Assembly (NCBI GenBank): GCA_000002445.1 | Contig: CH464491.1 | Location: 2,176,001 to 2,240,000, forward strand | Origin: Trypanosoma brucei | Taxonomy: Eukaryota | Direction of reading: 5' to 3' | DNA length: 64,000 nucleotides | Part shown: positions 11,290-49,206 of the stretch, piece after piece | Numbering within the stretch: the stretch's first letter is position 1 | Layout of the letters: each line of letters begins with the position of its first letter | Made by a program: the position numbers and the translations under genes | Notes under the pieces: generated by a model | The model's input: only the letters and a program-made list of their open reading frames with translations | Told to the model about the DNA's origin: nothing | Databases searched by the model: none

Positions 11290-11579
11290 ACCCTGAATAC
11301 GAAGTTATAGCACCGTACCGTGTGCAAACCACTCGCTTAAATATTAATAACTTGGTTGTCTCAAAGGTTAGGAAATACAAGGCAACCAAAAAAGGGATGG
11401 TTATGCAAAGGGGATGGCAAGTTAGTTTGCAACGCGCCAACTTTGACATAGAGGTGAGAACAGATGAATATCACCGCAGGAACATGTGGACACACGCCCA
11501 TCCTTGCCTATGTTGCAGAAATGCCCAGTAACCCGGAAGCTCGAGGGGGCAAAAAACTATCGATTGCACCGCCGAATAT

Positions 11580-14684: not shown

Positions 14685-14698
14685 GGGGGGGGGGGGGG
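14685..14698. repeat. Poly(G) homopolymer, 14 nt, inside the strand-switch region
   Basis: Counted directly: cctggggggggggggggctcatg. Confidence 0.9.
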
Positions 14699-23087: not shown

Positions 23088-24341
23088 ATGGAAGAAGGAA
23101 CGTATGCGGGGCAACTGGGGACGCAAAATCTAGATAGTGTCGTAGAGACGGATGAAACTAACTTTCTCCACGAACGGTTATCCTCCAAAATTAGTAATGG
23201 GTTTGCTTCGAGTGCGTACTGGGGTGCCACCGGGGAGTTGCCGCCCCGGGAGCCGGATGACGTGGCTGGGAAGAAGCCACATTGCTTTGAAATGGAACTC
23301 AATCGCAAACTTGTACCCTTCCCTGAGGACAAGACTAGTCTTCCGCGGATATTGGATTACTCACACGTTGGGCTTCATCGACTAAGGGACGGCGCTGAGG
23401 ATCCTCCGAAGCTTAACGAGGCTCAGTTGCGGGCGTTGGAGGCTGGTGGATCGGCCTCAGGGGATAACACGTTAAAGAGAAGGGGGCTGCCTCTTTTGGA
23501 GAGGACAACCACACAAGGGCGTACCATCGGTAAGGGGATCTTAGGTCCTGAAGCACTGAACGCCCTTCGGGAAGGAAATGCCAACATAAGTGCAGCAGAA
23601 GCTAACCGTGAGCAACTAAAGAGCAAGCCCTTCACATCTGCAGACCCCAATGCCTACCGGCCGACTTCGTGGGACTACTGTGACATGACCGGTATTGATC
23701 CATCTTCTTACTGGGTTACCGCGCTTGATCAAGAGAGCGTGGGGATGCCTGCCGTCTACAAGAGTCGATACAATTTGGTCGAGAAAGAGGGGCCCGTGCG
23801 GCGGGAAAGAACTACATTGATGCTGGAACGGGGGAAGACTGTTGATAAAAAGCAATTGAGAGATACCCTGGATGGCATTAATGCTGAAGCAGTACCTCAA
23901 GGCTACAAAACTTGGTCAGCCGGTCACTGGATGAGCACCACTCATGATGCCCATGCCCCGTATGACATTGGAGGAGCTACGGAAATCAATAAGCGGAATG
24001 CGACTGTGCCACTCCCCAGGACGTACCACACGCTCACGCCGGTGCACGAGGAGACCGTCTTGTCGCAGACGCAGCGGCACCTGAACAGGCACAATGGTAA
24101 GTGGGCCACTGAATACTCAGTGTCTTACAAGGACAGTTTTGATGAAGCAGAGGTAAACAAGGCCTATAGCAAGAGAAGTATATTTGATATCAGGGACGGC
24201 GCCTACACCATGCACCCTTACGCTCATCACCCTCGCGACGATACGGCGACTGGGGAAAATTATACGCCTGCACAGATTGTACCGGGCCAATATACTTCCA
24301 TTGCCAGGCAACCACTTCACGCACGTAATGCTATCAAATAA
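23088..24341 (+). CDS. Hypothetical protein (417 aa)
   Basis: Long ORF with a verified ATG, preceded by a T14 poly-pyrimidine tract (22958-22971). No domain recognised. Confidence 0.55.
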   Translation: MEEGTYAGQLGTQNLDSVVETDETNFLHERLSSKISNGFASSAYWGATGELPPREPDDVAGKKPHCFEMELNRKLVPFPEDKTSLPRILDYSHVGLHRLRDGAEDPPKLNEAQLRALEAGGSASGDNTLKRRGLPLLERTTTQGRTIGKGILGPEALNALREGNANISAAEANREQLKSKPFTSADPNAYRPTSWDYCDMTGIDPSSYWVTALDQESVGMPAVYKSRYNLVEKEGPVRRERTTLMLERGKTVDKKQLRDTLDGINAEAVPQGYKTWSAGHWMSTTHDAHAPYDIGGATEINKRNATVPLPRTYHTLTPVHEETVLSQTQRHLNRHNGKWATEYSVSYKDSFDEAEVNKAYSKRSIFDIRDGAYTMHPYAHHPRDDTATGENYTPAQIVPGQYTSIARQPLHARNAIK

Positions 24342-25410: not shown

Positions 25411-25968
25411 ATGTTGAATCCGACATTTTCTCTGTACAGGAAGACGTTGCAGTCCTATCCTGTACCACCGAAGATTCGCCACTACGATCGGCGATGGAGT
25501 GGAAGTCGCACAAACCCATACAATCGTCAATATTGGCGCGTGATTATGAACGAGAACTACTCCCGTCCATCCTTTTGGGTTTCAGACTTCCGTCACCGTT
25601 ACTTGATGCGTACAGGAACGGATTATCAAGGGCAGGTGCCTTCTTCACCACAACCCGGCCTCTACCAGGGGTTCAGTGACGTACATAAATTGTTAGCCAA
25701 CCACCCCAAACCACAGAGGGAATCCCGCCATTTACCAGTGTTGCCGATGACCCCACGGGTTGTCTTTGAACACGCCAATGAAAAGCGCATAGATACGGCG
25801 AAGAAGATGCGCAGGGACAGACGCAGGATAGAGGAATTGAAAACATTGGAATTTTGGGGGTGGTATATGAAGCTGCAGCGCGTCCGGGGCCGCTGGTGCC
25901 GGGAACAGGGCGTTTCGAGCCGTGGCGTTTATGGACCGGCAGTGGACGCAGCGGAGTTATGGGGTTAG
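25411..25968 (+). CDS. Hypothetical basic protein (185 aa)
   Basis: ORF with a verified ATG. Arg/Lys-rich. No recognised domain. Confidence 0.4.
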   Translation: MLNPTFSLYRKTLQSYPVPPKIRHYDRRWSGSRTNPYNRQYWRVIMNENYSRPSFWVSDFRHRYLMRTGTDYQGQVPSSPQPGLYQGFSDVHKLLANHPKPQRESRHLPVLPMTPRVVFEHANEKRIDTAKKMRRDRRRIEELKTLEFWGWYMKLQRVRGRWCREQGVSSRGVYGPAVDAAELWG

Positions 25969-26205: not shown

Positions 26206-27777
26206 ATGATGAAGGGCAAACGCCTGAGCAAACGCCTCAGACGTAAGGAGGAACAAGAAGAGATAATCGAAGACCTCGACCTCGACGTGGAGGACTACGA
26301 GATTGAGGAGGATGACGTCGTCCACAATCGACGTAGTAAAGTGAAGGACAAGGGTGACGGAGTGAATGGTGTGCTCCCGGTGGACGCTCACAAGCTGGAA
26401 GGCTTTGACGATGACGATGAGGAAAAGGGTGCTCATCTAGAGGAAGAGAGACTCGCTCTTGAAGTAAACAAGACTATGCGAAAAAATACGGTTGATTCTG
26501 ATTTTGATGTTGGTGGTATCTCCGCGGGAACGAAGCGTAAGAGGACACCCGAATTTAACGTAACCCAAAGTGTTGCACCCGTTATTGAGGCCGTGGAGCG
26601 CGACTACGCCGCATTAACTTCTTCGGAGCGGCTGTCAATTGTGCAGAAAGAGTCTCCTGAGATGATCAAGATGCTTGAGGAAATGAAGCGGTACCTTGCC
26701 GAGGTGAGGGAACTGGGCGATCCTCTTCACGAACTGCTCTTCCGGCGGCGACTGTCAAGCGCCGATCGGAGCCTCGTTCAGTTCCTGGAAACAAAGGTGC
26801 AGCTAATGCTCAGTTATTGTATGCACGTGACATTCTATTTACTTATGAAAACGGAAGGCAAAAAGATTGCCGGCCACCCAGTCATAGACAATCTGGTGGA
26901 GATACGTGTTTACCTTGAGAAGTTGTTCCATATGGAGGAGAAGCTGCAGTACTCGTTGAATCGCCTACTAAGCGGCAAGACAACAGCTGTTGCACACCTT
27001 GATACTCTACGCCCTCTTCAGTGTAATGAGCGCGTCTCCATGACAACCAACAAAGATGCAAAGAAGAGTCGCAAGCAACTTGAAGCGATGAAAGAAGCGG
27101 AAGAAATTGAGAAGGAGGAAATGGCAACAATGAACCGCATTCGCACTAAGAAGTCAGGTAGCCTTGACGAGGTAACACCTGTTGATAGCAAGGCAGCCGC
27201 TTCAGTACTGGGCTACCACGAGGATGAAGACCAGTTTTTTGCAAAGCTAGCGGCAACCGAGAGTGACGAAGATGGAGAGGAGGGCCTTTCCTTAGTTGAG
27301 CGCTTAAAGAAGCGTCAACGAGCACTCGCAAAGGGTAGCGACGACGCTGACGACGAAGGCAATCGCAACGGAAACGTGATCGTGGATGATGATGATGATG
27401 GTAGTTATGACCAAGAGGAGTGTGAAGACGAGCTTCTCAGTGAGGGTGTGAACGAAGAGGGCGAGTACGAGACGCTCTTGGAGGAGGAGCGGGATCGCCA
27501 GAAGAGAAGGGTTGCGACTCTGCAACCCAAGCGGGAGTTAATCGAACCTGCAGTGGATCGTCGCAAGACGACCAAGAAGATTGAAACGCACCGGGGGCTG
27601 ACCAAATCTCGCCCGAAGGACCGGAAAACTCCCCGGACAGCTCAACGACGCAAGTATGAGAAAGGTTTGCGCATCCATAAGACACAGACACGCACTGTTC
27701 AACCGGAGCCGGAGGGTGGCTTTGTGGGTGTGCCGCTGCTCAAGTCTCGCGTTACGCAAAGCGTTCGGTTTCAGTAG
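26206..27777 (+). CDS. SAS10/UTP3-family protein (U3 snoRNP / SSU-processome component-like)
   Basis: The N-terminus is acidic. A Sas10/Utp3/C1D-type domain is present (LVQFLETKVQLMLSYCMHVTFYLLMKTEGKKIAGHPVIDNLVEIRVYLEKL). Acidic stretches appear mid-protein. The basic C-terminus with RRKYEKGLRIHK resembles the Sas10 C-terminal domain. Confidence 0.7.
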   Translation: MMKGKRLSKRLRRKEEQEEIIEDLDLDVEDYEIEEDDVVHNRRSKVKDKGDGVNGVLPVDAHKLEGFDDDDEEKGAHLEEERLALEVNKTMRKNTVDSDFDVGGISAGTKRKRTPEFNVTQSVAPVIEAVERDYAALTSSERLSIVQKESPEMIKMLEEMKRYLAEVRELGDPLHELLFRRRLSSADRSLVQFLETKVQLMLSYCMHVTFYLLMKTEGKKIAGHPVIDNLVEIRVYLEKLFHMEEKLQYSLNRLLSGKTTAVAHLDTLRPLQCNERVSMTTNKDAKKSRKQLEAMKEAEEIEKEEMATMNRIRTKKSGSLDEVTPVDSKAAASVLGYHEDEDQFFAKLAATESDEDGEEGLSLVERLKKRQRALAKGSDDADDEGNRNGNVIVDDDDDGSYDQEECEDELLSEGVNEEGEYETLLEEERDRQKRRVATLQPKRELIEPAVDRRKTTKKIETHRGLTKSRPKDRKTPRTAQRRKYEKGLRIHKTQTRTVQPEPEGGFVGVPLLKSRVTQSVRFQ

Positions 27778-28205: not shown

Positions 28206-29927
28206 ATGCAACCTATAGAACGTGCTGAGGAGCTACTGGCCCATGAGCGAGAGAAAATTGGTTTGTTCCGGATGCCGTTTCGCACACTTCAACTTTCATG
28301 TGCCTATTGCGTGAAGACTGTCACCAGCTACGTTGTCAAGTGTATCAAGTCATCCGCCTTTATGTTTGTGCTACCGGTTATCCTTCTGGTGGTTGGAGTT
28401 TCGACTTTTTTGATCGATTCCCCCGCTGGTCGTGCATTCAGGTTCCTAGACGCTGATGGCGATGGCTATGTGTCAGTTGCAGAGGTGGAGGGTTATTTTA
28501 GAGACAAATTGAACAGGAAACTGGGTGCTGGACGAGGGGCAAATTCTATTTTCCCTTCCGGAACTGCCCGTTTAGACAAGTCGAAGTTCACGTCATGGTG
28601 GGTGGAAGGCTACGGTGATGCTGTTAGACAGAACGCTTTCTTCAACCAAGGACCCTGGAGGGAGGCTGAGTACATGCTCGCTGATGCGCTGTGGTGGCTC
28701 GGCCTGGGAATCCTTTCTTCAATTGGTTTGGGCACAGGGATGCACTCTGGGTTGTTGTTCTTGTTTCCCTATATTTACCAGCTTTGCGCTGCAGTAGACT
28801 CATGCGGTAACACTAACTTTTGGACGTACCCGGTGAACCCCATTTACGGGCCGCGGGATCGTGTGTTTGCCTGCCTTAACCCTCAAAAGAAGGATGTCCC
28901 GACGTCGGTACTTACACGTGTGCTGATGCTGCTCCCTGCATGCTTCATTTGGGGGGTGGGCACAGCAATCGGCGAGATTCCGCCGTACCTGTTGAGTTAC
29001 ACGGCGGCCCGGCAGGGAAAGCGCAACTCGGAGTTGGATGAGGCTTCAAGGTACGACATCCTTAATAAAATGAAGGCATGGATGCTGGAGAAAATACAAC
29101 GTTATGGCTTCGTAGCAGTTCTCCTACTCGCCGCTTGGCCTAACATGGCTTTTGATCTCTGTGGTATGGCCTGCGGACAGTTTCTGATGCCCTTCTGGAC
29201 CTTCTTTGGTGCAACACTCATTGGTAAGGCATTTTGCAAGATTACACTGCAGGCTGTTTTCTTTGTTCATCTATTCTCCGGTGACAACGTGGAGCGCTTG
29301 ATCCATCGTGTAGGTGACGTCATAGCAGCTGTTGTTGTTATCCCCTCCTCAGTTTATTCGGGTGGGACTCAGGGCCTTGTCAAAAAGGCCGTAGAGGCTG
29401 TTGTGCGCGCCCGCCAAAGTATCGCCCTAAGGGCACGCGGTGAAGCAACTGTCGGCGAGGGAATGCAGTCTGCATCCCTCTTAGCGACTATCTTCGGTTG
29501 GGTAGTCGTTGCAGCAATCGCTTTTTTCGCTAAATCCGTCGTGGAAACGTTTGCTCAGAACGAGCAACAACAATACGACAAGATTGTACTAGAATATATT
29601 GGGAAGGCATTGGCACGAGGTCGGTCGAAAAAGAGCGTCACCGACGAAGAATTGCTTCAACTAATTGAGGAGTCGCAACGCTTATGCGTGGAACCAGAGC
29701 ACCTGATGAGTTTTAACCATGAGACGCTCGTAACCTATGTTTGCGTGGTTGTCGCTGGTTTCGTGATGGTTCACTATTCCGCAGTTGCCGGTCTCTCGCT
29801 CCTATTCCACATGTTTGTGTGTATGGTACATAACAACGAGTCTCTCCACCCAGTGACACTGTGGTTGCTGCGACTGTTGTTTGCGTCAGCGGCCCTTTAC
29901 ACGTTGTGTGGCCTGGAAACGCTGTAG
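28206..29927 (+). CDS. VMP1: Vacuole membrane protein 1 (VMP1/EPG-3 family; DedA-superfamily ER scramblase-like)
   Basis: Strong matches to metazoan VMP1. [26 protein letters not shown] matches [39 protein letters not shown] matches WGIGTAIGELPPY, and [17 protein letters not shown] matches [17 protein letters not shown]. Multiple TM helices are present. Confidence 0.88.
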   Translation: [573 protein letters not shown]

Positions 29928-30609: not shown

Positions 30610-31218
30610 ATGGATTTCCAGGGCTTACTACAACAAGAGGCATCCACGCGTGGACTCACAATGGTTCCGCTTTCTAGTGTGGTTGCAATGCCGTCGTCAC
30701 GGAAGGTGGCCTGTTGCGGTGGGTTTGTAGAGAAGGTTGTCGCGGAGTCAGAGCGGGACTGCACGGTTCTTCTTAGAGACGCGACGGGCGGCGTACACTG
30801 TGCCATTCACGGTGCGGTTTCCGACCGTTACCCCGATGTTCTCGCGACTGGTGCGGTCCTCCTTCTCCAAGACGTTACTGCGTTGATTGTTCCATCTTTG
30901 TTACCACCGATCATTGTGGTTTGCCTCGAGCATCTGGTGGCACTACTTCTTCCAGAGGGACCTCCGTTAAGCAATGCTGAATACACACTGGATTCGACGG
31001 CTCCGGGTGAAGAGTCACCAACCTTGGGGCACTTTACCAGCACTAATGACGTTGTGCAAACACCTGGTCGTTTAAGTGGTGCTGCAGAGGGAGCGTCACC
31101 GCAGGTCGCGCCCCCAAACATATCTGGTCTACCAACCAAAGTCGAGGAGGCAGCAGACGTTGTTTCCGTTGACCATGCAAGTGATGATGATAGCCTACAA
31201 CTTGCCGATGATTTATAA
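30610..31218 (+). CDS. Hypothetical protein with a possible HROB/MCM8IP-type OB-fold (DUF4539-like)
   Basis: The segment KVACCGGFVEKVVAESERDCTVLLRDATGGVHCAIHGAVSDRYPDVLATGAVLLLQDVTALIVPS follows the DUF4539 pattern as I recall it (...VLLKDPTGEM.GT.H..L....L.PGSVLLL.QVGVF.PS). ATG at 30610 verified. An antisense ORF overlaps. Confidence 0.5.
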   Translation: MDFQGLLQQEASTRGLTMVPLSSVVAMPSSRKVACCGGFVEKVVAESERDCTVLLRDATGGVHCAIHGAVSDRYPDVLATGAVLLLQDVTALIVPSLLPPIIVVCLEHLVALLLPEGPPLSNAEYTLDSTAPGEESPTLGHFTSTNDVVQTPGRLSGAAEGASPQVAPPNISGLPTKVEEAADVVSVDHASDDDSLQLADDL

Positions 31219-31566
31219 TAGATACCCATTCTGTGTACCCTCAGGGAACGAACAGACCGCGGGACGCACATTTCTACTCCCTGTTTATTCTTAATTTATA
31301 TACATCGTATTCCTCCTGTTTCAGTGCTTATTCTTTCGCTGAAAGGCGATATGTGTAATATGCACTCGTGCTTTCCTCTCGGTGGGAGCCTGATTTCCTA
31401 TGTCATTCGAAAACAACTTTGATACACGAGGAGGACTCATAACTGCTGGCAAAACTGCGTGTCGTTGGTAAAACCACCGCAGGCGAGGGCAATTGAATCC
31501 CTTTTCTTCCCACTCCTTCTACGCGCGCAAACTTATTGGTGTCTCACGTACTCTCGAGTGCAGCCA

Positions 31567-32481
31567 ATGAGAGAGAGAAAACCCATTAGGAAGATGAAGA
31601 GGAGCCGCGTCAGCGACCAAATCATTCGCGTCGAAGAGCCGGATGCAGAAGAGGGCGAGGCTTCCCCTGCAAAAGCCACCCCGGTTCCACATTTTAGCGA
31701 TAGGCGCATTTGCATCAATGTCGGAGGGGAATACATCACAACGCTGGCCAGCACACTGTGCTCTGAGCCCTCCAAGTTTTCGGAGTGGGTGGAAAACAAC
31801 TTTCAAGGACTCCCGCGCGACTCTATGGGCAACCCCTTTATAGACAGGGATCCAGAGAACTTTCGACAGATAATCAGTTACTTGCGCGGCTACGAGCTGC
31901 CGACTGCAACTGAAAAAATTGTTTTTTTGGCCGAAGACGCGGAGTACTATCACATTGATAGGTTGCTAGCTCTGATCAACCCCCCAGCGGAGTGGCGTTT
32001 CGTAAGCGGCCCTGGTGTTTCTTCAAGTCGAAAAGAGTTCAGCACAGAAAACATTCTCGCTACGTGTGGTAATGAACCGCTTCCACAGGTAGGGAAGTCT
32101 GTTTTCTTGCTTCGCATCGATAAATGTGAGCTGGTTTCCATCGGGCTTGTCGGCACGGAATCACCCGACCACGACGAACCACTAGAAAGGCAAACGAATG
32201 CGATTGCTTATAGGAGTACCGGTGAATTGATTAGGTCCTTGAACAGCTCCAGTACTTTTTTTTCGGGCAATGGCTACAAAGGTCGCGATACCGTTATGGT
32301 ACAGGTTTTGTTCAAGCCTGAAGGTGCTGCGCAGATTGAATTTTTCTGCAACGACGTGAAGACACATGAGACAGAGTGGCTTTCCCCAGTTCCACCACTG
32401 CGATTTGCGGTGAGTTTGCACGGCGTCTCGGCTGTCGTAATTGAGAGATGTGTCGCAGGTGTTAAAGACGAGGATATGTAG
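31567..32481 (+). CDS. BTB/POZ (T1/KCTD-type tetramerisation domain) protein
   Basis: RICINVGGEYITTLASTL...PFIDRDPENFRQIISYLRGYELP is a classic K-channel-tetramerisation BTB fold. The track start at 31459 is GTG; the first ATG is at 31567. Confidence 0.8.
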   Translation: MRERKPIRKMKRSRVSDQIIRVEEPDAEEGEASPAKATPVPHFSDRRICINVGGEYITTLASTLCSEPSKFSEWVENNFQGLPRDSMGNPFIDRDPENFRQIISYLRGYELPTATEKIVFLAEDAEYYHIDRLLALINPPAEWRFVSGPGVSSSRKEFSTENILATCGNEPLPQVGKSVFLLRIDKCELVSIGLVGTESPDHDEPLERQTNAIAYRSTGELIRSLNSSSTFFSGNGYKGRDTVMVQVLFKPEGAAQIEFFCNDVKTHETEWLSPVPPLRFAVSLHGVSAVVIERCVAGVKDEDM

Positions 32482-33694: not shown

Positions 33695-34606
33695 ATGTCT
33701 GTAGATGTCGATGCCATTATCGACAAGCTTCTCGAAGTTCGTCTGTCAAAGCCAGGAAAGCAGGTGAGCCTGTCTGAAAACGATGTTAAAAACCTTGTCA
33801 TGCGAAGTCGTGAGATCCTTCTTTCACAACCAGCATTGCTCGAACTTGAAGCCCCTATTAAAATATGTGGGGACATCCACGGGCAGTACTACGATTTGAT
33901 TCGTCTATTTGACAACGGTGGTTTTCCACCTTCCGCCAACTATCTTTTCCTCGGGGATTACGTAGACCGTGGCAAGCAGGGACTGGAGACGATTTGTCTT
34001 GTCCTCGCGTTTAAGGTGAAGTTCCCCGAGAACTTTTTTATATTACGTGGTAATCACGAATGCGCCAGCATCAACCGCATCTACGGTTTTTTTGACGAAT
34101 GCAAGAGGCGCTACAACATTCGGCTGTGGAAGGTGTTCACCGACACTTTCAACTGCCTTCCCGTTGCGTGCATTATTGACGATAAGATTTTCTGCTGTCA
34201 CGGCGGGCTTTCCCCTGACCTGCAGTCAATGGAGCAAATTAAAAAGATTGAACGCCCATGCGACGTTGCTGACACGGGACTCATATGCGATTTACTCTGG
34301 TCGGATCCGGAGGAGGGTCTCTCAGGCTGGGGCGAGAACGATCGTGGTGTGTCCTACACGTTTGGCCAAGATATCGTAGCGAAGTTTCTTAGCAGGCACG
34401 ACTTTGATTTGATCGTGCGTGCGCATCAGGTAGTGGAAGATGGCTATCAGTTTTTCGCTACGCGGCAGCTGATAACAATATTCTCGGCGCCCAACTATTG
34501 CAACGAGTTTGACAACAGCGGTGCAGTAATGTCTGTAGATGCGGACCTTCTGTGCTCCTTCCAAATCCTTAAGCCATCCGTAAAGAAGCCCAAGTACTTT
34601 CAGTAG
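33695..34606 (+). CDS. PP1: Serine/threonine protein phosphatase 1 catalytic subunit (PPP family)
   Basis: Near-complete PP1 signature set: [63 protein letters not shown]. Confidence 0.97.
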
Positions 34607-37624: not shown

Positions 37625-38251
37625 ATGGCAGATGATGAACCCGAATACCGTGAGGCAGCGAATCCGATAGAGGCTTTCATTGACTGCGCACGTTACGACG
37701 AGCCTGGGGATGCCGAGGCGCTACGCACACTTTTATCAAATTCTCCGTCGTTCCTCAACTCTCAGGACGAGCAGGGACGAACCGCCCTACACGTAGCTGC
37801 GGCAAATGGTCGTTTGAAAGTACTCGAAACGCTCTTAGGATATAATCCAACACCTGATGTACCGAACAATGAAGGCAACACCGCTTTGCATTTCGCGGCG
37901 CTTAACAATCAGACGGCTGCTGCTCGATTGCTTTTAAGGCACGGATGGCGCGCGTCTGCAAGAAACGCTTTCAATAAAACCCCAATTCAACTCATTTACG
38001 GTAAGCAGTTCGAGGATATGGAGCTACTGCTTCTAGGCCACGACGACGAGTTGGAACAATTCAGTGGTCAGGCGAGTCAGGCAGCGCGCGGCCCAGCGGT
38101 GGTAAATGAGGCAACTGTGCAGCAGCAACCTGCTGTAGAAGCGGAGCGTGCTACAAATGCGGAGCAGCCTCGTGTAAATCCTGTTCAGAAGGAACAGGAA
38201 AGTGATCCCACGACGCTACTGGGCTCCGTGGGTGTTGATGAAATCGAATGA
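37625..38251 (+). CDS. Ankyrin-repeat protein
   Basis: At least three ANK repeats (GRTALHVAAANGRLKVLETLL, GNTALHFAALNNQTAAARLLLRHG). ATG verified. Confidence 0.85.
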   Translation: MADDEPEYREAANPIEAFIDCARYDEPGDAEALRTLLSNSPSFLNSQDEQGRTALHVAAANGRLKVLETLLGYNPTPDVPNNEGNTALHFAALNNQTAAARLLLRHGWRASARNAFNKTPIQLIYGKQFEDMELLLLGHDDELEQFSGQASQAARGPAVVNEATVQQQPAVEAERATNAEQPRVNPVQKEQESDPTTLLGSVGVDEIE

Positions 38252-38479: not shown

Positions 38480-39496
38480 ATGGAGCCAAGGCGTTGGCGC
38501 CCACGGTTCTTCAACCCCTTTACCGAAAGAAGACGGCGGAGCTCACACCTCCCTGTTTATCGTGGGTTCTTTCGTGTGATGCCGCTGCATCGATGGAGCC
38601 TCAACAACATACAAGCTGTTCTTGGTTACGCGGCGGCAAACCCCTCGCTTTTTGGTTTTCCTGAGCAGCCCACTTGCATTGTGAACACAGCGTATTTTCT
38701 TCCCTCTCACCGTAGTCGACAACGCGGTATTTGGGTTTTTGGGACAGAGAGGGGTTGTAAAAGCATTGTTGTTCCCTCGTCATGCAACGGAGGACAATTT
38801 GACGCAATGGACGCGAAACTGATGGAGCCGCTCTTCCGCTGGAATCCCGGTGTGGAATACATTTATCTTTCGCAAAATTGCCAAGCAATGGCATCACAGT
38901 TGGTACCTTATTTGCAACGCTGCACGCAGCTAAGGACCCTCACATTGGAAGGGTGGAACGATGCTGTGGCCATTCACCGGGTTGTAATTGCCTGCAAACA
39001 CGTTGACACTCTAGACGCCTTTTCATTTGACGATCCCGTACGTCAGTGGAAGAATGAGCTATCTGTACAGGCCCTCAACACTCTCATCGAAATGCATCCA
39101 AAACTTATTTGTGTGAAGGCGACGCGGGTTTACCTTACCGATTGGTACGAGGCCACCCAATTCTCTCGCTGTAAGCACAACATTGCGCTCGTCCCCTTCA
39201 CATGTGATTTTGTGCTGCTGCACTATGGTTTTTTTTTACTTCTTGTGTCAGTTGTCGCGTACGCGGTGTACAGAGAAACGTGGTGGTTGCTGCGGGACAC
39301 GTGCAGCCGGGCATACCTACCTTTCTGGTCTGCTCTTGCTGCCGTCGGCACATTTACAGTAATTGTAGCTCTCGACGTGGCTGGATGGAGGAGCTATGGT
39401 CGGGCGTGGGTTCACATGCACAAATACGTCATCATTGCACGCCGCCGGTGGGATATGATACGGGGACGTCATCACAAGTCGCTCATGTTGGTTTGA
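38480..39496 (+). CDS. Hypothetical protein with C-terminal transmembrane helices
   Basis: 338-aa ORF with a verified ATG. The C-terminus is hydrophobic (FVLLHYGFFLLLVSVVAYAVY, ALAAVGTFTVIVALDVAGW). A 10-nt G-run follows the stop. Confidence 0.5.
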   Translation: MEPRRWRPRFFNPFTERRRRSSHLPVYRGFFRVMPLHRWSLNNIQAVLGYAAANPSLFGFPEQPTCIVNTAYFLPSHRSRQRGIWVFGTERGCKSIVVPSSCNGGQFDAMDAKLMEPLFRWNPGVEYIYLSQNCQAMASQLVPYLQRCTQLRTLTLEGWNDAVAIHRVVIACKHVDTLDAFSFDDPVRQWKNELSVQALNTLIEMHPKLICVKATRVYLTDWYEATQFSRCKHNIALVPFTCDFVLLHYGFFLLLVSVVAYAVYRETWWLLRDTCSRAYLPFWSALAAVGTFTVIVALDVAGWRSYGRAWVHMHKYVIIARRRWDMIRGRHHKSLMLV

Positions 39497-39916: not shown

Positions 39917-40900
39917 ATGTCTAATGTTGCTTTTGACTCGGGGCACTCTGCCAACATTACTGATGCTGCGGTAGATACGTCGGGAAAGTTGGTGGCATCC
40001 TCTGGAGAGGATGGAACCATTCGCATTTTTGCCGTTCAGTCCGCCCCCCATGACGAAGGGAGCGAGAACGTTGACAGTGACTGGAAACTACTCACTGTTC
40101 TCGCTGGTCATACGGGAAGTGTGGTGTGCGTGGCATGGGCGCCTCCGCAGCACTACATCTCAGCCCTTCTTTCTTGTGGGGAGGATGGCCAGGTGATTTT
40201 GTGGAGTGATGTTGGGAACGACTCGCGGGAATGGACAAAAGTATACACGGCCGCACTCCCATCGCCCATATGGTGCGCTGCTTGGGCCCCGCCAGCTTAC
40301 GGTAAGATGTTCGCTGTTGGATGCAAAAATGGAGCTGTTGTTATCTTTACTGGTGAACTGCAACGGTGGGAACGCAGTGAGTTTAGTGCCCATCGCAGTG
40401 GTTGTTTTTGCCTTTCGTGGGGCCCGTCCATGCCACCAGGGGCGTTGTTTACATTGCCTCTGGAGGAAGACCCGCAAGCACTGCGATCACAAGATCAACA
40501 ACCGGGCCTGCCGATCGCTCCACCGCGTATTACAACGTGCGGAGGGGAGCGCGTCGTGACGGTGTGGACTCGAACTGCGGATGGCTGGCAGCCATTGGAG
40601 TTGCCCGTAGGGGTTGAGGCATCATGGAGAGAAGTAGCGTGGGCACCCGGGCTTGGGACTCCTTATACGTACATCGCTGCTGGTTCTGAAGAGGGTTTCG
40701 TGGCGGTGTGGTCGCATGACGGCACACCTGTGGGAGAGTGGGTCCGCGTGTTATTATGTCAGCAAGAGGATAGTATAACGAAACTTTCTTGGTCGCCTGT
40801 GGGCACCTTTTTGCTAGTGTCTTGTGCGAACGGAACCGCAAGCATGTGGCAGGAGTCAGCAGGGGGACAGGAGTGGGAACGTTCGTGTAAGCTACCTTAA
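39917..40900 (+). CDS. Sec13/Seh1-family WD40 protein (COPII / nuclear pore scaffold type)
   Basis: WD repeats carry the recurrent AWAP motif (VAWAPPQHY, AAWAPPAYG, VAWAPGLGTP) typical of Sec13. The N-terminal DTSGKLVASSGEDGTIRIF matches the Sec13 DYYGTRLATCSSDRSVKIF region. Confidence 0.82.
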   Translation: MSNVAFDSGHSANITDAAVDTSGKLVASSGEDGTIRIFAVQSAPHDEGSENVDSDWKLLTVLAGHTGSVVCVAWAPPQHYISALLSCGEDGQVILWSDVGNDSREWTKVYTAALPSPIWCAAWAPPAYGKMFAVGCKNGAVVIFTGELQRWERSEFSAHRSGCFCLSWGPSMPPGALFTLPLEEDPQALRSQDQQPGLPIAPPRITTCGGERVVTVWTRTADGWQPLELPVGVEASWREVAWAPGLGTPYTYIAAGSEEGFVAVWSHDGTPVGEWVRVLLCQQEDSITKLSWSPVGTFLLVSCANGTASMWQESAGGQEWERSCKLP

Positions 40901-41376
40901 TTGTTGTGCACATGTGTGTTGCCTCCGCGGAGAAAGGAAGGGGGACATGAGAACTGAGGTAATACCGTCTGCTTGTAGGGTCGGTTGAGCGTCGCTTCCT
41001 GAACGGAGGTATTAAAGGGAGTCGCTTTTCGCTGTCCCTTCTTGGTTTGGCATCCCTCAGATGCCCTTTTCCTTTTACACTACGTGCCATTACCGCCCTT
41101 TTGCTTCCTATGGAAATGTTGTGGTGGAGGGTGGTTTAGAGCCAGCAGTGCCACGGACCGGGTTTTCACTATTTTTAAAAAAAGAAATAGCGAGGAAACA
41201 GGGAACAATAAGTGACATTTTTTTTCCAGTTTAGAGTGCGCGTATGCGTGGAGCCCCTAGTGTTGAAAAATCCTTGTCTTATGTTTCCAATACCCGTATA
41301 CGTCTCCACCCTCGAATCATCTCTTGCTCTATCTTTTCCACGCTAGTGTGTTGCTTATTAAGCAGTAAAGCCGACA

Positions 41377-42644: not shown

Positions 42645-43304
42645 ATGATGTACATTCGTACCTTCGGTGACATGCTTCACCTCCTGGCTATTTTTATTCT
42701 ACTAGGAAAGATGCTGCGGGGGCGTTCTGCTGCGGGTCTTTCTCTTAAAACGCAATTTCTTTTTGCTCTTGTCTTCACGACGCGGTACCTTGACCTGTTT
42801 TTGTCCTTTATTTCTGTGTACAACACCATGATGAAGATATTTTTTCTCGCAACCTCGTGGCATATTTGTTACCTAATGCGTTGTAAAAGCCCGTGGAAGA
42901 CAACCTATGACCACGAGAACGACACCTTCCGCATCCGTTACCTGATCATTCCCTCGTTTGTTCTCGCCCTTCTTTTCAACGGTCACCAGCATGGCATGTG
43001 GGTGATGGACGTGTTATGGGCATTTTCGCAGTACCTGGAGTCTGTGGCTATTCTACCACAAATCTTCTTACTGGAATATACAGAACGCTACGAAGCACTC
43101 ACATCGCATTACCTCGCCGCCATGGGTGCCTACCGCCTCTTTTACCTTATACATTGGATTGCTCGCTATTTCGTGCACGGAAGCGTTAATGCTGTCTCTG
43201 TGTGCGCTGGCGTGCTTCAGACAGTGTTGTACGTTGACTTCTTTTACCACTACATCAGCCAGGTTGTGTGGCGCGCTAAGCAGCGATATGATTTGGCGCG
43301 ATGA
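42645..43304 (+). CDS. ERD2: ER lumen protein-retaining receptor (KDEL receptor, ERD2)
   Basis: Matches KDELR along its length. FGDMLHLLAIFILLGKM matches LGDLSHLLAIILLLLKI, ALVFTTRYLDLF matches AVVFTARYLDLF, and YLESVAILPQIFLL, SHYLAAMGAYRLFYLIHWI and LQTVLYVDFFYHYI all have KDELR counterparts. Confidence 0.95.
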   Translation: MMYIRTFGDMLHLLAIFILLGKMLRGRSAAGLSLKTQFLFALVFTTRYLDLFLSFISVYNTMMKIFFLATSWHICYLMRCKSPWKTTYDHENDTFRIRYLIIPSFVLALLFNGHQHGMWVMDVLWAFSQYLESVAILPQIFLLEYTERYEALTSHYLAAMGAYRLFYLIHWIARYFVHGSVNAVSVCAGVLQTVLYVDFFYHYISQVVWRAKQRYDLAR

Positions 43305-44676
43305 AATGGGTATCGTTATGAGCACGGCATGATTTGTTTCGACTTTGTTGTACATGCACTTGGATATCCACGTGAATATGTATGTTCGTAATGGAGACAA
43401 GCAGAGGAGAATCAGGCAACGGCGGGAAGAAGGTGTTGTATTATTGCTGCGACTCGGGAAACGAGGTAAGAAGGGGCTGGAGGTGAAGGCGAGGTGAAGA
43501 GGGAAAGTGATGGAGGAGTTAGCGTGGAAGCTGGAATTGTCGCGCCATGTGGTGCATTAGAGTGAAGGAGGGTGGCCGCTTGTAAGGGACTGGAGAGATA
43601 CGGAACATGAACACTGTGAGTAGAATAGAGATATTGTGGGAATCATGAATGAGGAGTGTGCATACGAGTTGGCGTGTGTGATTAGGGGTTTGTCCTTATT
43701 ATAAAGAGGAGGGGCCGGTGCTGCAATCACCATTCAGGGATCTTCTTGCATCCTACTGAAAATACAGAGCGGATTTGTTAACGAAGTTTTGCGTTCAAGC
43801 CATTTAAGTTAGATCCCTCACCGTACGCCCTGTAGTCATAGGGAAAGTCGAGCAGATTGCAGCGGAAGATGTTTTATTGAGCACATTCCTTCGTTTGCTT
43901 TCACTCAAGCACTGATGGCTGTGGGAGCGAGGGGGATTAAGAACATGCCGCACGCGGGGGGGGGGACTGTTTTTTTTTTTTCACACCAAATGTCGGTCAC
44001 GTTCCGAAACGGATGGACCACCTTTCAGTTTTGTGTTTGGTTTTGGCACACCGGGCGTTGGTTTGGATCTGCATTATGGTAATGTACTGAGTGCTACCAA
44101 ATGCGCCTTGTGTCCTGCTGTCTTCTCATTTATGTCGTTTGCTGCTTCGTTTAAGTTTTTTTTTGTTAACGAATGCATACTTGCGAGCCCGCCTCCCTTT
44201 TGTACAAGCATGTCCTTCGACCCCAGCTTGACGCGGTACTAATAGGCTTTCCTTATCTGACTCTTTCTGTCCTATTGAGACATTTTCAGTCGTCCTGCTT
44301 CAAATGTGACGTGCCCGTACGTTACTCGTAGATATGACCCCCTTCCCCTTTTCATATTGCCAACTTAAAAGTTTTCGGGATAGAAAGAGACTGTGGAGAA
44401 TGGTACTGTTGCGGGATGGGGTCAGTTCTTCTGTACGTGGGGCCTTCACATCAACTGTGTAGTTTCAATGCACACGACTGCTGTTGCAAAACTTGGACCA
44501 GAATTGCCACTGTTATCTTTGTTGCTTTATCACGGTTTCTGTCTCACTATTTCCACTTCTCTTTCGCTCCCCCTCTTCTCGTTTTTTAGTCGGTTGTGTT
44601 GTCTTTCTCAGCTTCAGGGGGAGAAAGGAGAACGGTAGCATCAACCGCCACCTTGGGTGTGCGGACCTTTTCAGTT

Positions 44677-47600
44677 ATGAACAATTATCATATTTACGAC
44701 GAAATTGGAAAGGGCCGCCACAGTCGTGTCTATAAGGGGCGACAGAGAAAGTCGATAGAGTACTATGCGATATCGTCCATAGAGAAATCGCAGCGGCAGC
44801 ATGTGCTCACAAACGTAAAATTCCTTCGGTCCTCAAATCACCCCCGTATCATCAAGTTTCACAACTGGTACGAAACAAACAATCACCTGTGGGTTATTAC
44901 CGAACTTTGCACAGGGGGAGACATGCGGCAGGTGTTACATCCAGAAAGTCGCCTGTCAGAGGCAGCTGTCCGCTTGTATGGTGGGGACATTGCGGAGGGT
45001 CTCATGTACATCCACTCACGTGGAGTTGTGTACCGTGATTTAAAGCCGTCTAATGTCCTTATGGACTCCACCATGGCAATGCGGTTCTATGATTTCGGAC
45101 TTTCGTGTAACTTTCCCGTAAACTGTGGAGGTGGCACGATAGGGACTGCGATGTACATGGCCCCGGAACTCTTCATGAAGGAGGGCGTGCCGTCCATTGC
45201 ATCCGACTTGTGGTCTTTTGGATGCGTGCTGCTGGAGATGAGAACTGGAAAACCCCCGTTTGATGCCGATAACTTGGAAGAACTAATTACACAAATTCTC
45301 ACGGAACCATATCATCCCCACGAGGAGCTTTCTGATGAGCTGAATGAGCTACTCGGGAAGTTGCTAGTGAAGAACCCTCTAGAACGGGCAACGTGGGAAG
45401 ATGTTGTATTGAGCCCTTTTTGGCAGGGTCGACTGCATATGCCTGCCGCCCCTCACCCACCCCAACCTGCTTTTGAGAGTTTAAAACAGAAACGGCTCGC
45501 TTCTGATGGGGGAAAGGGTGACTTTGTGATGACACTAGAGGAAGCCAAGAAGGCGGTAGAATGGACTGTAGAGGTTGCGAAGCGCAACTTTATTCTCACG
45601 CAACCCGACTCTGATGGATCCGCGCTGATATGTCTGGGTGTGTACGATCGCATTGACACAAGAGACCTCACTGGAGAAGGTGAGGGTGTTCGCGACCCTA
45701 CGTCAGGTTCACTGATAGGGGATGGAAATTCGTGTGCCTCCCCCTCGTCTTGTGTAGCCCGGGTGGGCTGTGACAGCAACGCGGGGCGGCAAGGTGACGG
45801 CGCAGCACAACGGGAAGGCGATCACAACAGGGAGATGGTGAGCGATATTGGTACAGCCGTTGGTGGTAACGCCGCAAAAAATAGCAACGTGAAACAGTTG
45901 GTAGGCGGAGGTAAATTCAGTACTGCTCTTATCGATAGCCTGTTGAGCCATGTATCAGACGCGCACGTTAGGCCGCTGGTTATGAATAATCACATCGAGC
46001 GGTTTGTTGAACAAAAGTATGATGCCAAAGCTCTAGGCTTCGAGCCGCTGACGAAGAGTCAGTTGAAAGCTTACGATGAAGAACAAAAGGCTCGCTTTGT
46101 GACGAAAGTGTACCAGAGACTATCGTCATCCTCTTTGTCTTGCGAAGACAAGCTGAATGTACTCTGTTACTTTGAATCTATATGCTCGGAAAGTTCTACC
46201 GCCAATTTTGTTGTGAGCAGCTCGATCATGACGTTGTGTCTCAATATGGCCGGCCATCGCAAAGCTTCTTCTAGCTTCCGTGCCACGGCAGCGTCCATCA
46301 TGGGCATTCTTGTCCGGCATGCCACATTTATACACCCGGATCTCGCCAAGGTTAATATCCTTGCTTCAATAGTGAAAATGTACGCTGAGGAGGAGAGTTC
46401 TCGAGTACGGCGTAAGTTGGTTGCATGCTACGGCGAGTTTCTCATCTATATAGCAGTGCAGCAAGAGCGGGAGCGTGCCGTGTGGGGCGTTGACGTTCCC
46501 GCCACCTTCAATCTATACAGGAGCCTTTTGAACGACCCGGACGATGTGCAGAAGCACTACGCCATCAAAACCATCGAAAATCTGGCATCGGTGGGTAACC
46601 GCCAAATCGCACTTGACGCCTTCGTGAATGCGGAAACGATTTCCCTGTTGCTCTCTATACACGCGTTACCTCCAACGCCAACTTGTGGTGAATATATGCG
46701 AGCTGCCGCAGCGTGCACGGCTCTGAAACTTGCGATGCTCCGGGAGGAACTCATACCTGCTGTGCTGGAGTCCCCATACCTAAAGCTTGAAGCGTATGGT
46801 GGTGTACTTGCTGCACCTAGTCCAAAATTGGCACAAGCGTTGTTGACGTTTGTAAACATGACGTTAGTTAAGGGGATGGTGGGGTTACGGCACGCAAACA
46901 TTACAAAGCTTGGGAAACCAGATGCAACAAGCCCTTTCGCCTCTTCGCGGCTTACGGGAGACAAGGCGAAGGGGGTGCTGACCGCACTTAGTGGGGTCGC
47001 TGAGGCAGTTGTGCGCGGGCTTCGTAACGGCAGTGAACACGCTACAACAGCGATGAAGGGAAAAACGTTGGTGTTGTTTATTCTCTTAGGATGCATGGAC
47101 GAGCAGCTACTGGTAAGGTTCTTCACTTCATCCCGGTGTGTTGCGTACGCCGATGGTATAGCGAAGGACAAGGACAGCTACGTGCAACGTTGCACACAGG
47201 GCTTTGCTGTGTACCTGAGTTATTTCTTCGGTTCACAGTTGGAAGGATTGACTCACGGGGCACCGTCCTTCATGATGAACAACGTCCCCAGTGCTCTGTG
47301 TAACCTATTAGGTACTAGGCACTTGTCCTCTATGTTGCAGCTAAATGATAAAGTCTTTTCCAGTATTGGGAAGTGTCTTGTGATGGTGTCCTCGTCGTCA
47401 CGCTATGCTGCTGCTGGAACGAATCTCCATGAATTGGTAGAGCTACTAGCGCAGAATCGCGAGTTAGTGTTGCGCCACCGTCTTGTTATTTCGAGTGATA
47501 TTTTTCCACCATATTTGAGCATGCTGGCCGAATCTGAGAGTGAGCGCCGTTTCCTATCGTTGCGAATCCTTAGAGCGTTGATTGTCCCTTTTGGCTCAGA

Positions 47601-48438: not shown

Positions 48439-49206
48439 ACGCGTTACACGTGTTGCTGGGTGCGAGAGGATGATTGGTAGTGGGGGCGAGTGTATCTGGC
48501 AGCACATAGTGCAGTATTACCTCACTCTCTTTCCGGAGTTGCTTACTCTGGAATACATACGCGGGCCCTGGTAGGGTGTAATTTTTTTCGTAGCCCTTCG
48601 CAATACATTTTACTGTTTTCCTACCTACCGAGGAACATGGTTTGGAGAGAGACTGGTTCCTTTGATCATCTGCACGGAGGGAGGGGGTGAGTAGAAGCTA
48701 GTGTGCTTCTCATCTGGAAAAGTTTGGGTGCGTACGTCGCTGGCTACCTAAGCCTAGCGGATGCCAAAAGATAAAGAGCCCCACAATAGGGTGCCTCATT
48801 CATTGGGTTGTGGTTCCTTCTGCACACAGCCGTGAAACTGATTTTTTCTTTTCCACAGGACTCTCTCCGTTTTTCTTTTCCTATTGACAGTACACTTTGC
48901 GTTAGTGCGTCTTCTCACGTGCTTTCCCCCCGTTCCCTTTGTCTACCCACCAGCACTCTCTTCCCCTCACTAATGTTTGTGATATGTGTTTGTTTATCTT
49001 AAACACAGCGTTTCTCGTCGCCGTCGTTGTTACTGAACCTGTTGTTTCTCTGTAGTGGTTCTCTTTTCCCGTTTTTTCTTTACTTCTTCTGTTATCTTTT
49101 GGGTGCAGAACCACCTTTATTGTGGGACCGTTATACTTAGAGGGGGACATTTGTACCCAAGCACTGACACACGCAAAGCTTCCCATCGGTTAACTTTAGC
49201 TTGCCG

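What the first reader, a model, noticed from the sequence alone, without database searches (positions are those of the whole stretch)
30610..31218. Candidate HROB/MCM8IP-like OB-fold (DUF4539-like) protein in a kinetoplastid
The 202-aa ORF contains a segment (CTVLLRDATGGVHCAIHGAVSDRYPDVLATGAVLLLQDVTALIVPS) whose spacing and residues resemble the conserved core of the DUF4539 OB-fold of HROB/MCM8IP. HROB recruits or activates MCM8-MCM9 in homologous recombination. If this is a true orthologue it would point to an MCM8/9-HROB axis in trypanosomes and be a candidate recombination or antigenic-variation factor. The similarity is judged from memory of the motif and needs a profile search.
Basis: inference. 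Interest (0 to 1): 0.6.

Follow-up and report, generated by a model that had tools for sequence, protein, structure and literature searches.

The report
Minimal HROB-family OB-fold protein, Trypanosoma brucei

Summary

The label is not new: UniRef and some NCBI records already call the protein or its orthologues HROB OB-fold/DUF4539. T. brucei MCM8 and MCM9 are also already known. No paper in the searchable library links HROB to kinetoplastids.

What is new is the architecture. The protein starts about 30 residues before the OB-fold. It lacks the FPGPAG(L/I)L MCM8-binding motif found in the 13 long opisthokont homologues inspected (12 animal, 1 fungal). It lacks the N-terminal acidic RPA1-binding region, and trypanosomatid RPA1 lacks the 70N receptor domain. 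It is very acidic (pI 4.27). It ends in an invariant DDxxLQLADDL motif shared by about 30 short homologues.

Two of three key human MCM9-contact positions keep their character. The most likely function is a minimal MCM9-docking cofactor of TbMCM8/9; this is inferred, not shown.

The parts
30610..31218 (+). Complete CDS (202 aa plus stop) of the T. brucei HROB-family protein, identical to XP_828881.1/EAN79769.1
   Evidence: orthologues; synteny
30610..30696 (+). N-terminal block, aa 1-29: conserved M-D-x-Q-x-L-L helix (model H3-13, H21-25). It aligns with the GAWQxM/LL helix immediately upstream of the OB-fold in long animal HROBs.
30697..30966 (+). OB-fold domain, aa 30-119 (Pfam PF15072 match covers aa 31-116). 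Order is beta1-beta2-beta3, helix, beta4-beta5. Net charge is -4 with only 2 aromatic residues.
30760..30897 (+).
30808..30810 (+). His67, which aligns with human HROB H528 (an MCM9 contact). It is at least 90% conserved in the 35-sequence A2 alignment and is His in 11 of 13 members of the mapping alignment.
30883..30885 (+). Leu92, which aligns with human HROB F553 (inserts into the MCM9 hydrophobic pocket). The position is hydrophobic in all 13 members aligned.
30910..30912 (+). Ile101, which aligns with human HROB Y561. The position is Tyr or Phe in four of five opisthokonts and one kinetoplastid-type clade, and non-aromatic (M, L, V, I or C) in the other short forms, so the Tyr hydroxyl contact is not conserved.
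30967..31176 (+). Variable acidic linker, aa 120-189. It is poorly conserved, ranges from about 30 to about 300 residues among homologues, and is predicted disordered.
31177..31215 (+). C-terminal acidic motif ASDDDSLQLADDL (aa 190-202). D192, L196, L198, A199, D200 and D201 are invariant in Trypanosoma. The motif [DE]n-[CS]-L-[EQ]-[LFM]-[AV]-D lies 0-3 residues from the C-terminus in about 30 short homologues.

Best explanation
The gene encodes a minimal member of the HROB (MCM8IP/C17orf53, Pfam PF15072) family. It consists of a short N-terminal helix and the HROB-type OB-fold, followed by a disordered acidic linker and an invariant acidic C-terminal motif (DDxSLQLADDL).

Shown here: family membership of the domain, the OB-fold, the conserved architecture in Trypanosoma, Phytomonas, Strigomonas and unnamed relatives, and the absence of the animal/fungal MCM8-binding FPGPAG motif and of the N-terminal acidic RPA1-binding region.

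Inferred: the OB-fold works as in human HROB. That is, it acts not as a DNA binder but as a protein module that docks on the N-terminal domain of MCM9, using His67 and the hydrophobic Leu92/Ile101 surface, and so helps activate or position the T. brucei MCM8-MCM9 helicase during homologous-recombination-associated DNA synthesis and repair of replication-blocking damage.

More speculative: the invariant C-terminal motif, tethered by the flexible linker, supplies the second contact that the FPGPAG motif (MCM8 C-terminal domain) or the RPA-binding motifs provide in animals. It would either bridge to MCM8 or recruit the complex to damage through a partner other than RPA70N.
For: Domain homology: PF15072 at E=1.4e-21, 76.6 bits against a 30.8 cut-off, full profile, and the only Pfam hit. 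A Trypanosoma-only profile retrieves FPGPAG-bearing arthropod HROBs at E 9e-7 to 9e-4.

Real, constrained gene: there are orthologues in all Trypanosoma species sampled, plus Phytomonas, Strigomonas and many environmental relatives, with conserved blocks separated by a free-drifting linker. Synteny with T. cruzi is conserved.

Not a DNA binder: pI 4.27, net charge -18; the OB domain is net -4 with 2 aromatics. This matches the human finding that deleting the HROB OB-fold leaves ssDNA binding intact but abolishes MCM8-9 stimulation, and that the OB-fold binds the MCM9 NTD (PMC11055865; cryo-EM preprint PMC13142438).

Interface: H528 aligns with conserved His67 and F553 aligns with the always-hydrophobic Leu92.

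Partners exist: T. brucei encodes MCM8 and MCM9 (PMC2667178; PMC3581582). MCM8 RNAi gave the strongest MMS sensitivity among replication genes, ratio 0.289 (PMC5542689). HROB, MCM8 and MCM9 co-occur across eukaryotes (PMC7290032).

Tail under selection: the C-terminal motif is invariant despite the variable linker.
Against: The motif that is sufficient for MCM8-9 binding in human cells (residues 396-413; F398 and L405; FPGPAGLL) is absent from every short kinetoplastid-type homologue, and nothing in the 64 kb window encodes it. The Tyr equivalent to Y561, whose mutation abolishes binding in human HROB, is Ile in T. brucei. In the MMS RNAi screen MCM9 showed no sensitivity (ratio 1.204), so how far the trypanosome pathway resembles the human one is unknown. 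TbMCM8 co-purified with MCM-BP and MCM4-7 but not with MCM9. No interaction, localisation or phenotype data for this gene were found. The residue mapping was transferred through a mollusc homologue that reproduces the human spacings, because no vertebrate sequence could be retrieved. No complex modelling was possible.
Confidence: 0.58

Rival explanations
1. It is a genuine HROB-family OB-fold protein that has been rewired in kinetoplastids. The OB-fold and the C-terminal acidic motif would bind partners other than MCM8/9, for example another MCM-related complex such as MCM-BP/MCM4-8, or a lineage-specific repair or replication factor. On this reading it shares ancestry with HROB but not HROB's mechanism.
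For: The MCM8-binding FPGPAG motif is absent. The critical Tyr (Y561) is replaced by an aliphatic residue. The N-terminal RPA-binding region is absent. There is a lineage-specific invariant C-terminal motif. TbMCM8 has an unusual association with MCM-BP and MCM4-7 without MCM9. MCM9 RNAi gave no MMS phenotype while MCM8 RNAi did.
Against: The OB-fold is the part of human HROB that is indispensable for helicase stimulation, and it contacts MCM9. It is also the best-conserved part here, including the His and hydrophobic contact positions. HROB co-occurs with MCM8/9 across eukaryotes, and both are present in T. brucei. No alternative partner is indicated by any data.
Confidence: 0.28
2. It is a generic single-stranded-DNA-binding OB-fold protein (a small RPA/SSB/Ten1-like subunit) that protects or marks ssDNA directly. 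On this reading the Pfam HROB hit only reflects general OB-fold similarity.
For: The closest solved structures are DNA-binding OB-folds: HIN domains, RPA70 DBDs, Teb1 and POT1. A weak sub-threshold profile hit to the AsnRS anticodon-binding OB-fold was seen (E=0.14).
Against: The Pfam hit is specific (only PF15072 is reported even at E<=10), full-length and 46 bits above the cut-off. The protein is strongly acidic (pI 4.27, net -18; OB net -4) with only two aromatic residues in the OB domain, which is the opposite of a nucleic-acid-binding surface. Sequence identity to the structural hits is only 8-19%. No solved HROB structure was in the library, so generic OB-folds are simply the nearest available.
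Confidence: 0.05
3. It is a spurious or non-functional ORF.
For: It is annotated only as 'hypothetical protein, conserved' in T. brucei TREU927. Antisense ORFs of 96 and 147 aa overlap it.
Against: Length, start codon, domain blocks and C-terminal motif are conserved across Trypanosoma, Phytomonas, Strigomonas and many environmental relatives. Syntenic position is conserved. The fold model is high-confidence.
Confidence: 0.01

Closest known systems
Human/vertebrate HROB (MCM8IP, C17orf53; Pfam PF15072/DUF4539), cofactor of the MCM8-MCM9 helicase
   Same: It has the same Pfam domain at full length and the same OB-fold with a preceding helix. His67 aligns with H528, and a hydrophobic residue (L92) sits at the F553 position. 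The domain is acidic and not DNA-binding in character, consistent with the human OB-fold being a MCM9-binding module. It is encoded in a genome that also encodes MCM8 and MCM9.
   Different: It is 202 aa against 647 aa, and the OB-fold is at the N-terminus rather than near the C-terminus. It has no FPGPAG(L/I)L MCM8-CTD-binding motif, no N-terminal acidic RPA1-binding motifs and no PRR18-like proline-rich region. The Y561 position is Ile. It has an invariant extreme C-terminal DDxSLQLADDL motif. Its function has not been tested.
Long invertebrate and fungal HROB homologues recovered here (insects, crustaceans such as Macrobrachium P0048, chiton P0071, beetle P0055, fungus Dipsacomyces P0072)
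   Same: They share the OB core and the preceding [W/F/Y]-Q-x-x-L helix. They also end in an acidic-hydrophobic C-terminal tail (for example DDELLSQLDVD, DLLDSIDVDSLFGDF, DLDSFLDILDPSD) that resembles the kinetoplastid tail in type.
   Different: They are 270-850 aa, and the full-length ones (about 500-850 aa) begin with an acidic N-terminus (MFExDDxxFDEDFL); the shortest (beetle, 274 aa) does not. They carry [FL]PGPAG[LI] about 110-120 residues upstream of the OB landmark. All of that is missing from the T. brucei protein.
RPA-type and HIN-type OB-fold domains (RPA70 DBD-A/B, Teb1, IFI16/AIM2/p205 HIN)
   Different: Sequence identity is only 9-16%, and there is no significant sequence-profile match. 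Those domains bind nucleic acid through basic and aromatic surfaces, whereas this one is acidic.

Membership tests
HROB/MCM8IP family (Pfam PF15072, DUF4539) | Significant match to the PF15072 profile above the curated gathering score | tested here: met
   E=1.4e-21, 76.6 bits against 30.8. Residues 31-116 cover profile positions 1-85/85. It is the only family reported at E<=10. All Trypanosoma orthologues carry precomputed PF15072.
HROB/MCM8IP family (Pfam PF15072, DUF4539) | The domain adopts an OB-fold | tested here: met
HROB/MCM8IP family (Pfam PF15072, DUF4539) | Reciprocal profile link to bona fide long HROBs | tested here: met
   A profile of 10 Trypanosoma sequences retrieves eight FPGPAG-bearing arthropod-type proteins (one confirmed as the crustacean Macrobrachium) at E 9.2e-7 to 9.1e-4 in a 1.84-billion-protein library.
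HROB as functional MCM8/9 cofactor (human-type mechanism) | MCM8-binding motif upstream of the OB-fold (human 396-413; F398-G403 and L405; FPGPAG[LI]L) | tested here: not met
   The regex FPGP[AS]G is absent from the T. brucei protein and from all short homologues. It is present in all 8 long arthropod-type hits and in the crustacean, fig-wasp, mollusc and beetle sequences; the fungus has LPGPAGL. The protein begins only about 30 residues before the OB-fold. No FPGPAG-coding DNA is in the window.
HROB as functional MCM8/9 cofactor (human-type mechanism) | Acidic N-terminal RPA1-binding motifs (human 1-54 and 153-168) | tested here: not met
   There is no sequence upstream of the OB-adjacent helix. 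The receptor domain RPA70N is itself absent from trypanosomatid RPA-1 (PMC5662062).
HROB as functional MCM8/9 cofactor (human-type mechanism) | MCM9-contact residues of the OB-fold (human H528, F553, Y561) | tested here: inconclusive
   H528 aligns with His67 (conserved), F553 with Leu92 (hydrophobic in all members aligned), and Y561 with Ile101 (aromatic lost). The mapping was transferred via a mollusc homologue with the same H-25-x-8-Y spacing, because no vertebrate sequence could be retrieved.
HROB as functional MCM8/9 cofactor (human-type mechanism) | Co-occurrence with MCM8 and MCM9 in the same genome | tested here: met
   This rests on the literature only. T. brucei is scored + for both in PMC2667178. 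The genes are Tb927.10.10410 (MCM8) and Tb927.9.9600 (MCM9). Neither gene lies in this window.
HROB as functional MCM8/9 cofactor (human-type mechanism) | Physical binding to MCM8/9 and stimulation of its helicase; HR or crosslink-repair phenotype | not testable with these tools
   No multimer modelling or experimental data were available, and no publication on this gene was found.
HROB as functional MCM8/9 cofactor (human-type mechanism) | PRR18-like proline-rich central region | tested here: not met
   There is no Pfam hit other than PF15072 at E<=10. The protein has no region N-terminal to the OB-fold.
ssDNA-binding OB-fold proteins (RPA/SSB/Ten1-like) | Profile match to an RPA/SSB/tRNA_anti family and a basic/aromatic nucleic-acid-binding surface | tested here: not met
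   No such Pfam hit was found. pI is 4.27 and net charge -18; the OB domain is net -4 with 2 aromatics. Only fold-level similarity exists.

The most novel reading that the evidence does not exclude
Kinetoplastids, and probably a wider set of Euglenozoa-like protists seen only in environmental data, use a 'mini-HROB' that keeps only the MCM9-docking OB core. In it, the animal/fungal MCM8 anchor (FPGPAG) and RPA70N-binding motifs are replaced by a single invariant C-terminal acidic motif ([DE]n-C/S-L-E/Q-L-A/V-D-D-L). This motif may be homologous to the uncharacterised acidic-hydrophobic tail that also ends arthropod, mollusc and fungal HROBs. If so, it would be an ancestral, so far unstudied third interaction motif of HROB, and in trypanosomes the sole recruitment or bridging element, co-evolved with the loss of RPA70N. 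If it also feeds MCM8/9 into the long-tract gene conversion that drives VSG switching, it would be a compact handle on antigenic variation.
Probability: 0.25. Interest if true: 0.6.

Novelty: new variant of a known kind. Interest (0 to 1): 0.4.

Why it matters
MCM8-MCM9-HROB promotes recombination-associated DNA synthesis and long-tract gene conversion in vertebrates. T. brucei depends on recombination, largely gene conversion, for VSG switching (established knowledge, not tested here). TbMCM8 was the strongest replication-class hit for MMS sensitivity in a genome-wide RNAi screen, yet the pathway has not been studied in kinetoplastids.

A natural minimal HROB that keeps only the OB core has two uses. 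First, it is evidence that the OB-fold contact with MCM9 is the conserved heart of the system. Second, it gives a small, tractable 202-aa protein with which to test how the helicase is recruited in an organism whose RPA1 lacks the usual protein-docking domain.

The conserved C-terminal motif is a concrete, mutable element for such tests. The practical limit is that everything beyond domain membership and fold is inference.

Tried and rejected
1. AF2 on the full-length protein with only 10 closely related Trypanosoma sequences gave pLDDT 39.8. I discarded it as uninformative. Re-running residues 1-128 with 35 diverse family members gave pLDDT 92.7.

2. I looked for a solved HROB chain to get human numbering and a direct structural comparison. 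Four PDB sequence searches found none: the single protein, the A1 profile, the A2 profile and the crustacean HROB. None appeared among the PDB fold hits listed. The 2026 cryo-EM structures are evidently not in the copy.

3. The AFDB library (afdb50), which would contain the human HROB model, was not available.

4. Two further word-indexed homologue searches (family alignment A2, crustacean P0048) did not reach any vertebrate HROB. Residue mapping was therefore transferred through the mollusc P0071, whose H-25-I-8-Y spacing equals human 528/553/561.

5. I considered that the C-terminal acidic motif is a canonical RPA70N-binding motif like the acidic motifs of human HROB. [quoted passage not shown] A different receptor is required.

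6. I considered that the MCM8-binding motif might be encoded nearby as a separate ORF. No FPGPAG-coding DNA is in the window, and the rest of the genome could not be searched.

7. I considered that neighbouring genes might give functional context. They are unrelated housekeeping genes, as expected for trypanosome polycistrons.

8. Literature searches for HROB, MCM8IP or DUF4539 together with trypanosome, Leishmania or kinetoplastid found nothing relevant. The MMS RNAi supplement could not be queried for this gene because its TriTrypDB identifier could not be obtained.

Full report
**Observation.** The + strand ORF at 30610..31218 encodes 202 residues from the first ATG after an in-frame stop. 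The sequence is identical to T. brucei brucei TREU927 XP_828881.1/EAN79769.1 ('hypothetical protein, conserved') and to a T. equiperdum protein named 'protein of unknown function (DUF4539), putative'. UniRef calls it 'Homologous recombination OB-fold protein OB-fold domain-containing protein'. So the window is T. brucei DNA; the carrying contig is 5.26 Mb, which I take to be chromosome 11. The organism guess was right.

**Is the resemblance real?** Yes.
- hmmscan against Pfam-A returns PF15072 (HROB) at E=1.4e-21 and 76.6 bits, against a curated cut-off of 30.8.
- Residues 31-116 cover profile positions 1-85 of 85, and no other family is reported even at E<=10.
- Orthologues of 201-212 aa, all with PF15072, exist in T. 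congolense, T. vivax, T. cruzi, T. rangeli, T. grayi, T. conorhini, T. theileri and T. melophagium at 49-57% identity.
- An exhaustive HMMER search with the Trypanosoma-only profile against 1.84 billion representatives gave 42 hits at E<=1e-3.
- Those hits include short proteins from Phytomonas and Strigomonas, many unnamed assemblies, and long arthropod-type proteins at E 9e-7 to 9e-4.
- Gene order is conserved between the window and T. cruzi: Sas10/Utp3, VTT-domain protein, HROB, BTB_2 protein, PP1-like phosphatase. A fused gene model from another relative (P0023) joins the HROB-like and BTB proteins.

**Fold.**
- A first AlphaFold2 run with only ten close orthologues was uninformative (pLDDT 39.8).
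- With a 35-sequence alignment spanning the whole family (A2), residues 1-128 modelled at pLDDT 92.7 and pTM 0.83.
- The model has an N-terminal helix (3-13), a short helix (21-25), then strands 31-46, 50-56 and 61-67, a helix at 68-78, and strands 83-92 and 101-113. This is the classic OB-fold order.
- Foldseek against the PDB gave 14 hits at E<=1e-3, all OB-folds: IFI16 HIN, Teb1, TPP1, ExoVII, PolD DP1 and class IIb aminoacyl-tRNA synthetase anticodon-binding domains.

**Anatomy beyond the domain.** The Trypanosoma alignment shows four parts:
- a conserved N-terminal block (M-D-x-Q-x-L-L-Q-x-E-A);
- the OB core (residues 30-119);
- a poorly conserved acidic linker (residues 120-189);
- an almost invariant extreme C-terminus, D-[DE]-[DN]-[CS]-L-Q-L-A-D-D-L, in which D192, L196, L198, A199, D200 and D201 are invariant.

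Across about 30 short homologues the tail motif [DE]n-[CS]-L-[EQ]-[LFM]-[AV]-D sits 0-3 residues from the C-terminus, even though the linker varies from about 30 to about 300 residues. That pattern is typical of a functional short linear motif. The N-terminal block aligns with the 'G-A-W-Q-x-M/L-L' helix that immediately precedes the OB-fold in long animal homologues. The trypanosome protein therefore starts exactly at the structured core.

**What is missing.** Three features of human HROB are relevant.
- Residues 396-413 are sufficient for MCM8-9 binding (PMC7290032).
- L405 contacts MCM8 (PMC11055865).
- In the cryo-EM preprint, residues 398-403 insert into an MCM8 C-terminal-domain pocket with F398 buried (PMC13142438).

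The long homologues recovered here carry K/R-F-P-G-P-A-G-L/I-L about 110-120 residues upstream of the OB landmark. The numbering F398-G403/L405 fits that motif; this is my inference. It is present in all 13 long opisthokont homologues inspected:
- the eight arthropod-type hits;
- two further crustaceans, a fig wasp, a mollusc and a beetle;
- the fungus, as LPGPAGL.

It is absent from every short kinetoplastid-type protein, and nothing in the window encodes it.

The two acidic RPA1-binding regions of human HROB (1-54 and 153-168) also have no counterpart. Most full-length animal forms begin with an acidic 'MFExDDxxFDEDFL' N-terminus. [quoted passage not shown] Loss of the ligand motifs is therefore consistent with loss of the receptor.

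**What is retained.** The human OB-fold is dispensable for ssDNA binding but essential for stimulating MCM8-9. It docks on the MCM9 N-terminal domain through F553, Y561 and H528; F553E and Y561E abolish binding. No vertebrate sequence could be retrieved. However, the chiton HROB (P0071) reproduces the human spacings exactly (His, then Ile 25 residues later, then Tyr 8 residues after that), which allowed the positions to be transferred:

| Human residue | T. brucei residue | Conservation among the 13 diverse members aligned |
|---|---|---|
| H528 | His67 | His in 11 of 13; at least 90% conserved in A2 |
| F553 | Leu92 | hydrophobic in all 13 |
| Y561 | Ile101 | Tyr or Phe in four of five opisthokonts and in one kinetoplastid-type clade; non-aromatic (M, L, V, I or C) in the other seven short forms, including T. 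brucei |

The protein is strongly acidic (pI 4.27, net charge -18; the OB domain is net -4 with two aromatics), as are all the short forms. That argues against direct DNA binding and for a protein-docking role.

**Pathway context.**
- T. brucei encodes MCM8 (Tb927.10.10410) and MCM9 (Tb927.9.9600).
- MCM8 was the most prominent replication-class hit for MMS sensitivity in a genome-wide RNAi screen (ratio 0.289). MCM9 was not a hit (ratio 1.204).
- TbMCM8 co-purifies with MCM-BP and MCM4-7 but not with MCM9.
- HROB, MCM8 and MCM9 co-occur among multicellular eukaryotes.
- No paper in the searchable library mentions HROB, MCM8IP or DUF4539 together with trypanosomes, Leishmania or kinetoplastids.

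**Most likely mechanism.**
- Shown: the protein is a minimal HROB-family member with the family's OB-fold.
- Inferred: the OB-fold docks on the MCM9 N-terminal domain and thereby helps activate or position TbMCM8/9 in recombination-associated DNA synthesis.
- Speculative: the tethered, invariant C-terminal acidic motif provides the second contact, either with MCM8 (functionally replacing FPGPAG) or with a recruitment factor other than RPA70N.

I put about 0.97 on family membership and about 0.58 on the MCM8/9-cofactor function. The main rival (0.28) is that the fold has been rewired to a different partner, given the missing MBM, the lost Tyr and the odd behaviour of TbMCM8 and TbMCM9 in published screens. 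A generic ssDNA-binding OB protein (0.05) is disfavoured by the specific profile hit and the acidic surface. A spurious ORF (0.01) is excluded by conservation.

**Comparison and novelty.** The domain call itself is already in UniRef, InterPro-type and NCBI annotation, and MCM8/9 in T. brucei are known. I found no description of the following points in the papers I could search:
- the minimal architecture;
- the demonstrated absence of the MCM8- and RPA-binding motifs;
- the coincidence with RPA70N loss;
- the invariant C-terminal motif.

The acidic-hydrophobic tails that end arthropod, mollusc and fungal HROBs may or may not be homologous to that motif. I therefore class this as a new variant of a known kind, of moderate interest (0.4). 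It is a compact, testable entry point to an unstudied recombination helicase pathway in a parasite that relies on recombination for antigenic variation, but there is no functional evidence yet.

**Limits.**
- No vertebrate HROB sequence, no AFDB comparison and no multimer modelling were available.
- The taxonomic identity of most short homologues is unknown (Logan/JGI assemblies without names).
- The TriTrypDB gene identifier could not be obtained, so published genome-wide phenotype and localisation data for this gene could not be consulted.

Noticed in passing
window 11290-17615: There is a divergent strand-switch region. All ORFs of at least 180 aa up to 11289 are on the minus strand and all but two from 13047 onward are on the plus strand (the exceptions, 40530..41090 and 46557..47171, overlap longer plus-strand ORFs). 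The GC-skew sign flips at about 12 kb. In trypanosomes such regions are Pol II transcription start regions; I did not examine it further.
   Followed up: no
window 23088-61665: The other genes of the same plus-strand polycistron are functionally unrelated: Sas10/Utp3 (26206..27777), VTT-domain membrane protein with a sub-threshold EF-hand (28206..29927), BTB_2 protein (31459..32481), PP1-like phosphatase (33695..34606), ankyrin-repeat protein (37625..38251), WD40 protein (39917..40900), KDEL receptor (42645..43304), ULK4-like kinase with HEAT repeats (44596..48438) and a 4154-aa dynein heavy chain (49201..61665). Three ORFs (23088..24341, 25411..25968, 38480..39496) have no Pfam hit at E<=1e-5.
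   Followed up: partly
P0023 (1437-aa protein from the representative library; no window coordinates): This is a fused gene model from an unnamed relative. It runs from the HROB-like protein (ending ...DVDCLELQ, where the normal C-terminus would be) straight into the BTB_2 neighbour, and ends with an ankyrin-repeat-like region. It is either a mis-prediction or comes from an organism with reassigned stop codons. It incidentally shows that HROB-BTB synteny is conserved.
   Followed up: no
C-termini of P0037, P0043, P0044, P0047, P0050, P0048, P0055, P0059, P0060, P0064, P0066, P0071, P0072: Animal and fungal HROB homologues all end in an acidic-hydrophobic motif. Examples are insect DSDDE[LV]LSQLD[VL]D[SA]I, crustacean DLLD[SG][IV]DxDSLFGDF-end, chiton DEFLTDLTADDFP-end and fungus DLDSFLDILDPSD-end. 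The HROB papers I read do not discuss a C-terminal motif. It may be an uncharacterised conserved interaction motif related to the kinetoplastid tail.
   Followed up: partly
window 30516-30806 (-) and 30828-31271 (-): Antisense ORFs of 96 and 147 aa overlap the HROB-like CDS. They are most likely mechanical artefacts of a GC-balanced coding region. No conservation test was done on them.
   Followed up: no
window 31459-32481: The mechanical ORF for the BTB_2 neighbour starts at a GTG and is 340 aa, while the T. cruzi orthologue is called at 346 aa. The true start codon in T. brucei was not determined.
   Followed up: no
P0036, P0038, P0040, P0042, P0049 (short environmental homologues): A more divergent set of 149-280-aa proteins shares the N-helix plus OB core (E 9e-7 to 8e-4) but has different, still acidic C-termini (...DDDIEL...TDEEL...LEIADDGDY). 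Their taxonomic origin is unknown (JGI/Logan/ENA metagenome assemblies). This suggests the minimal HROB architecture extends beyond trypanosomatids.
   Followed up: partly
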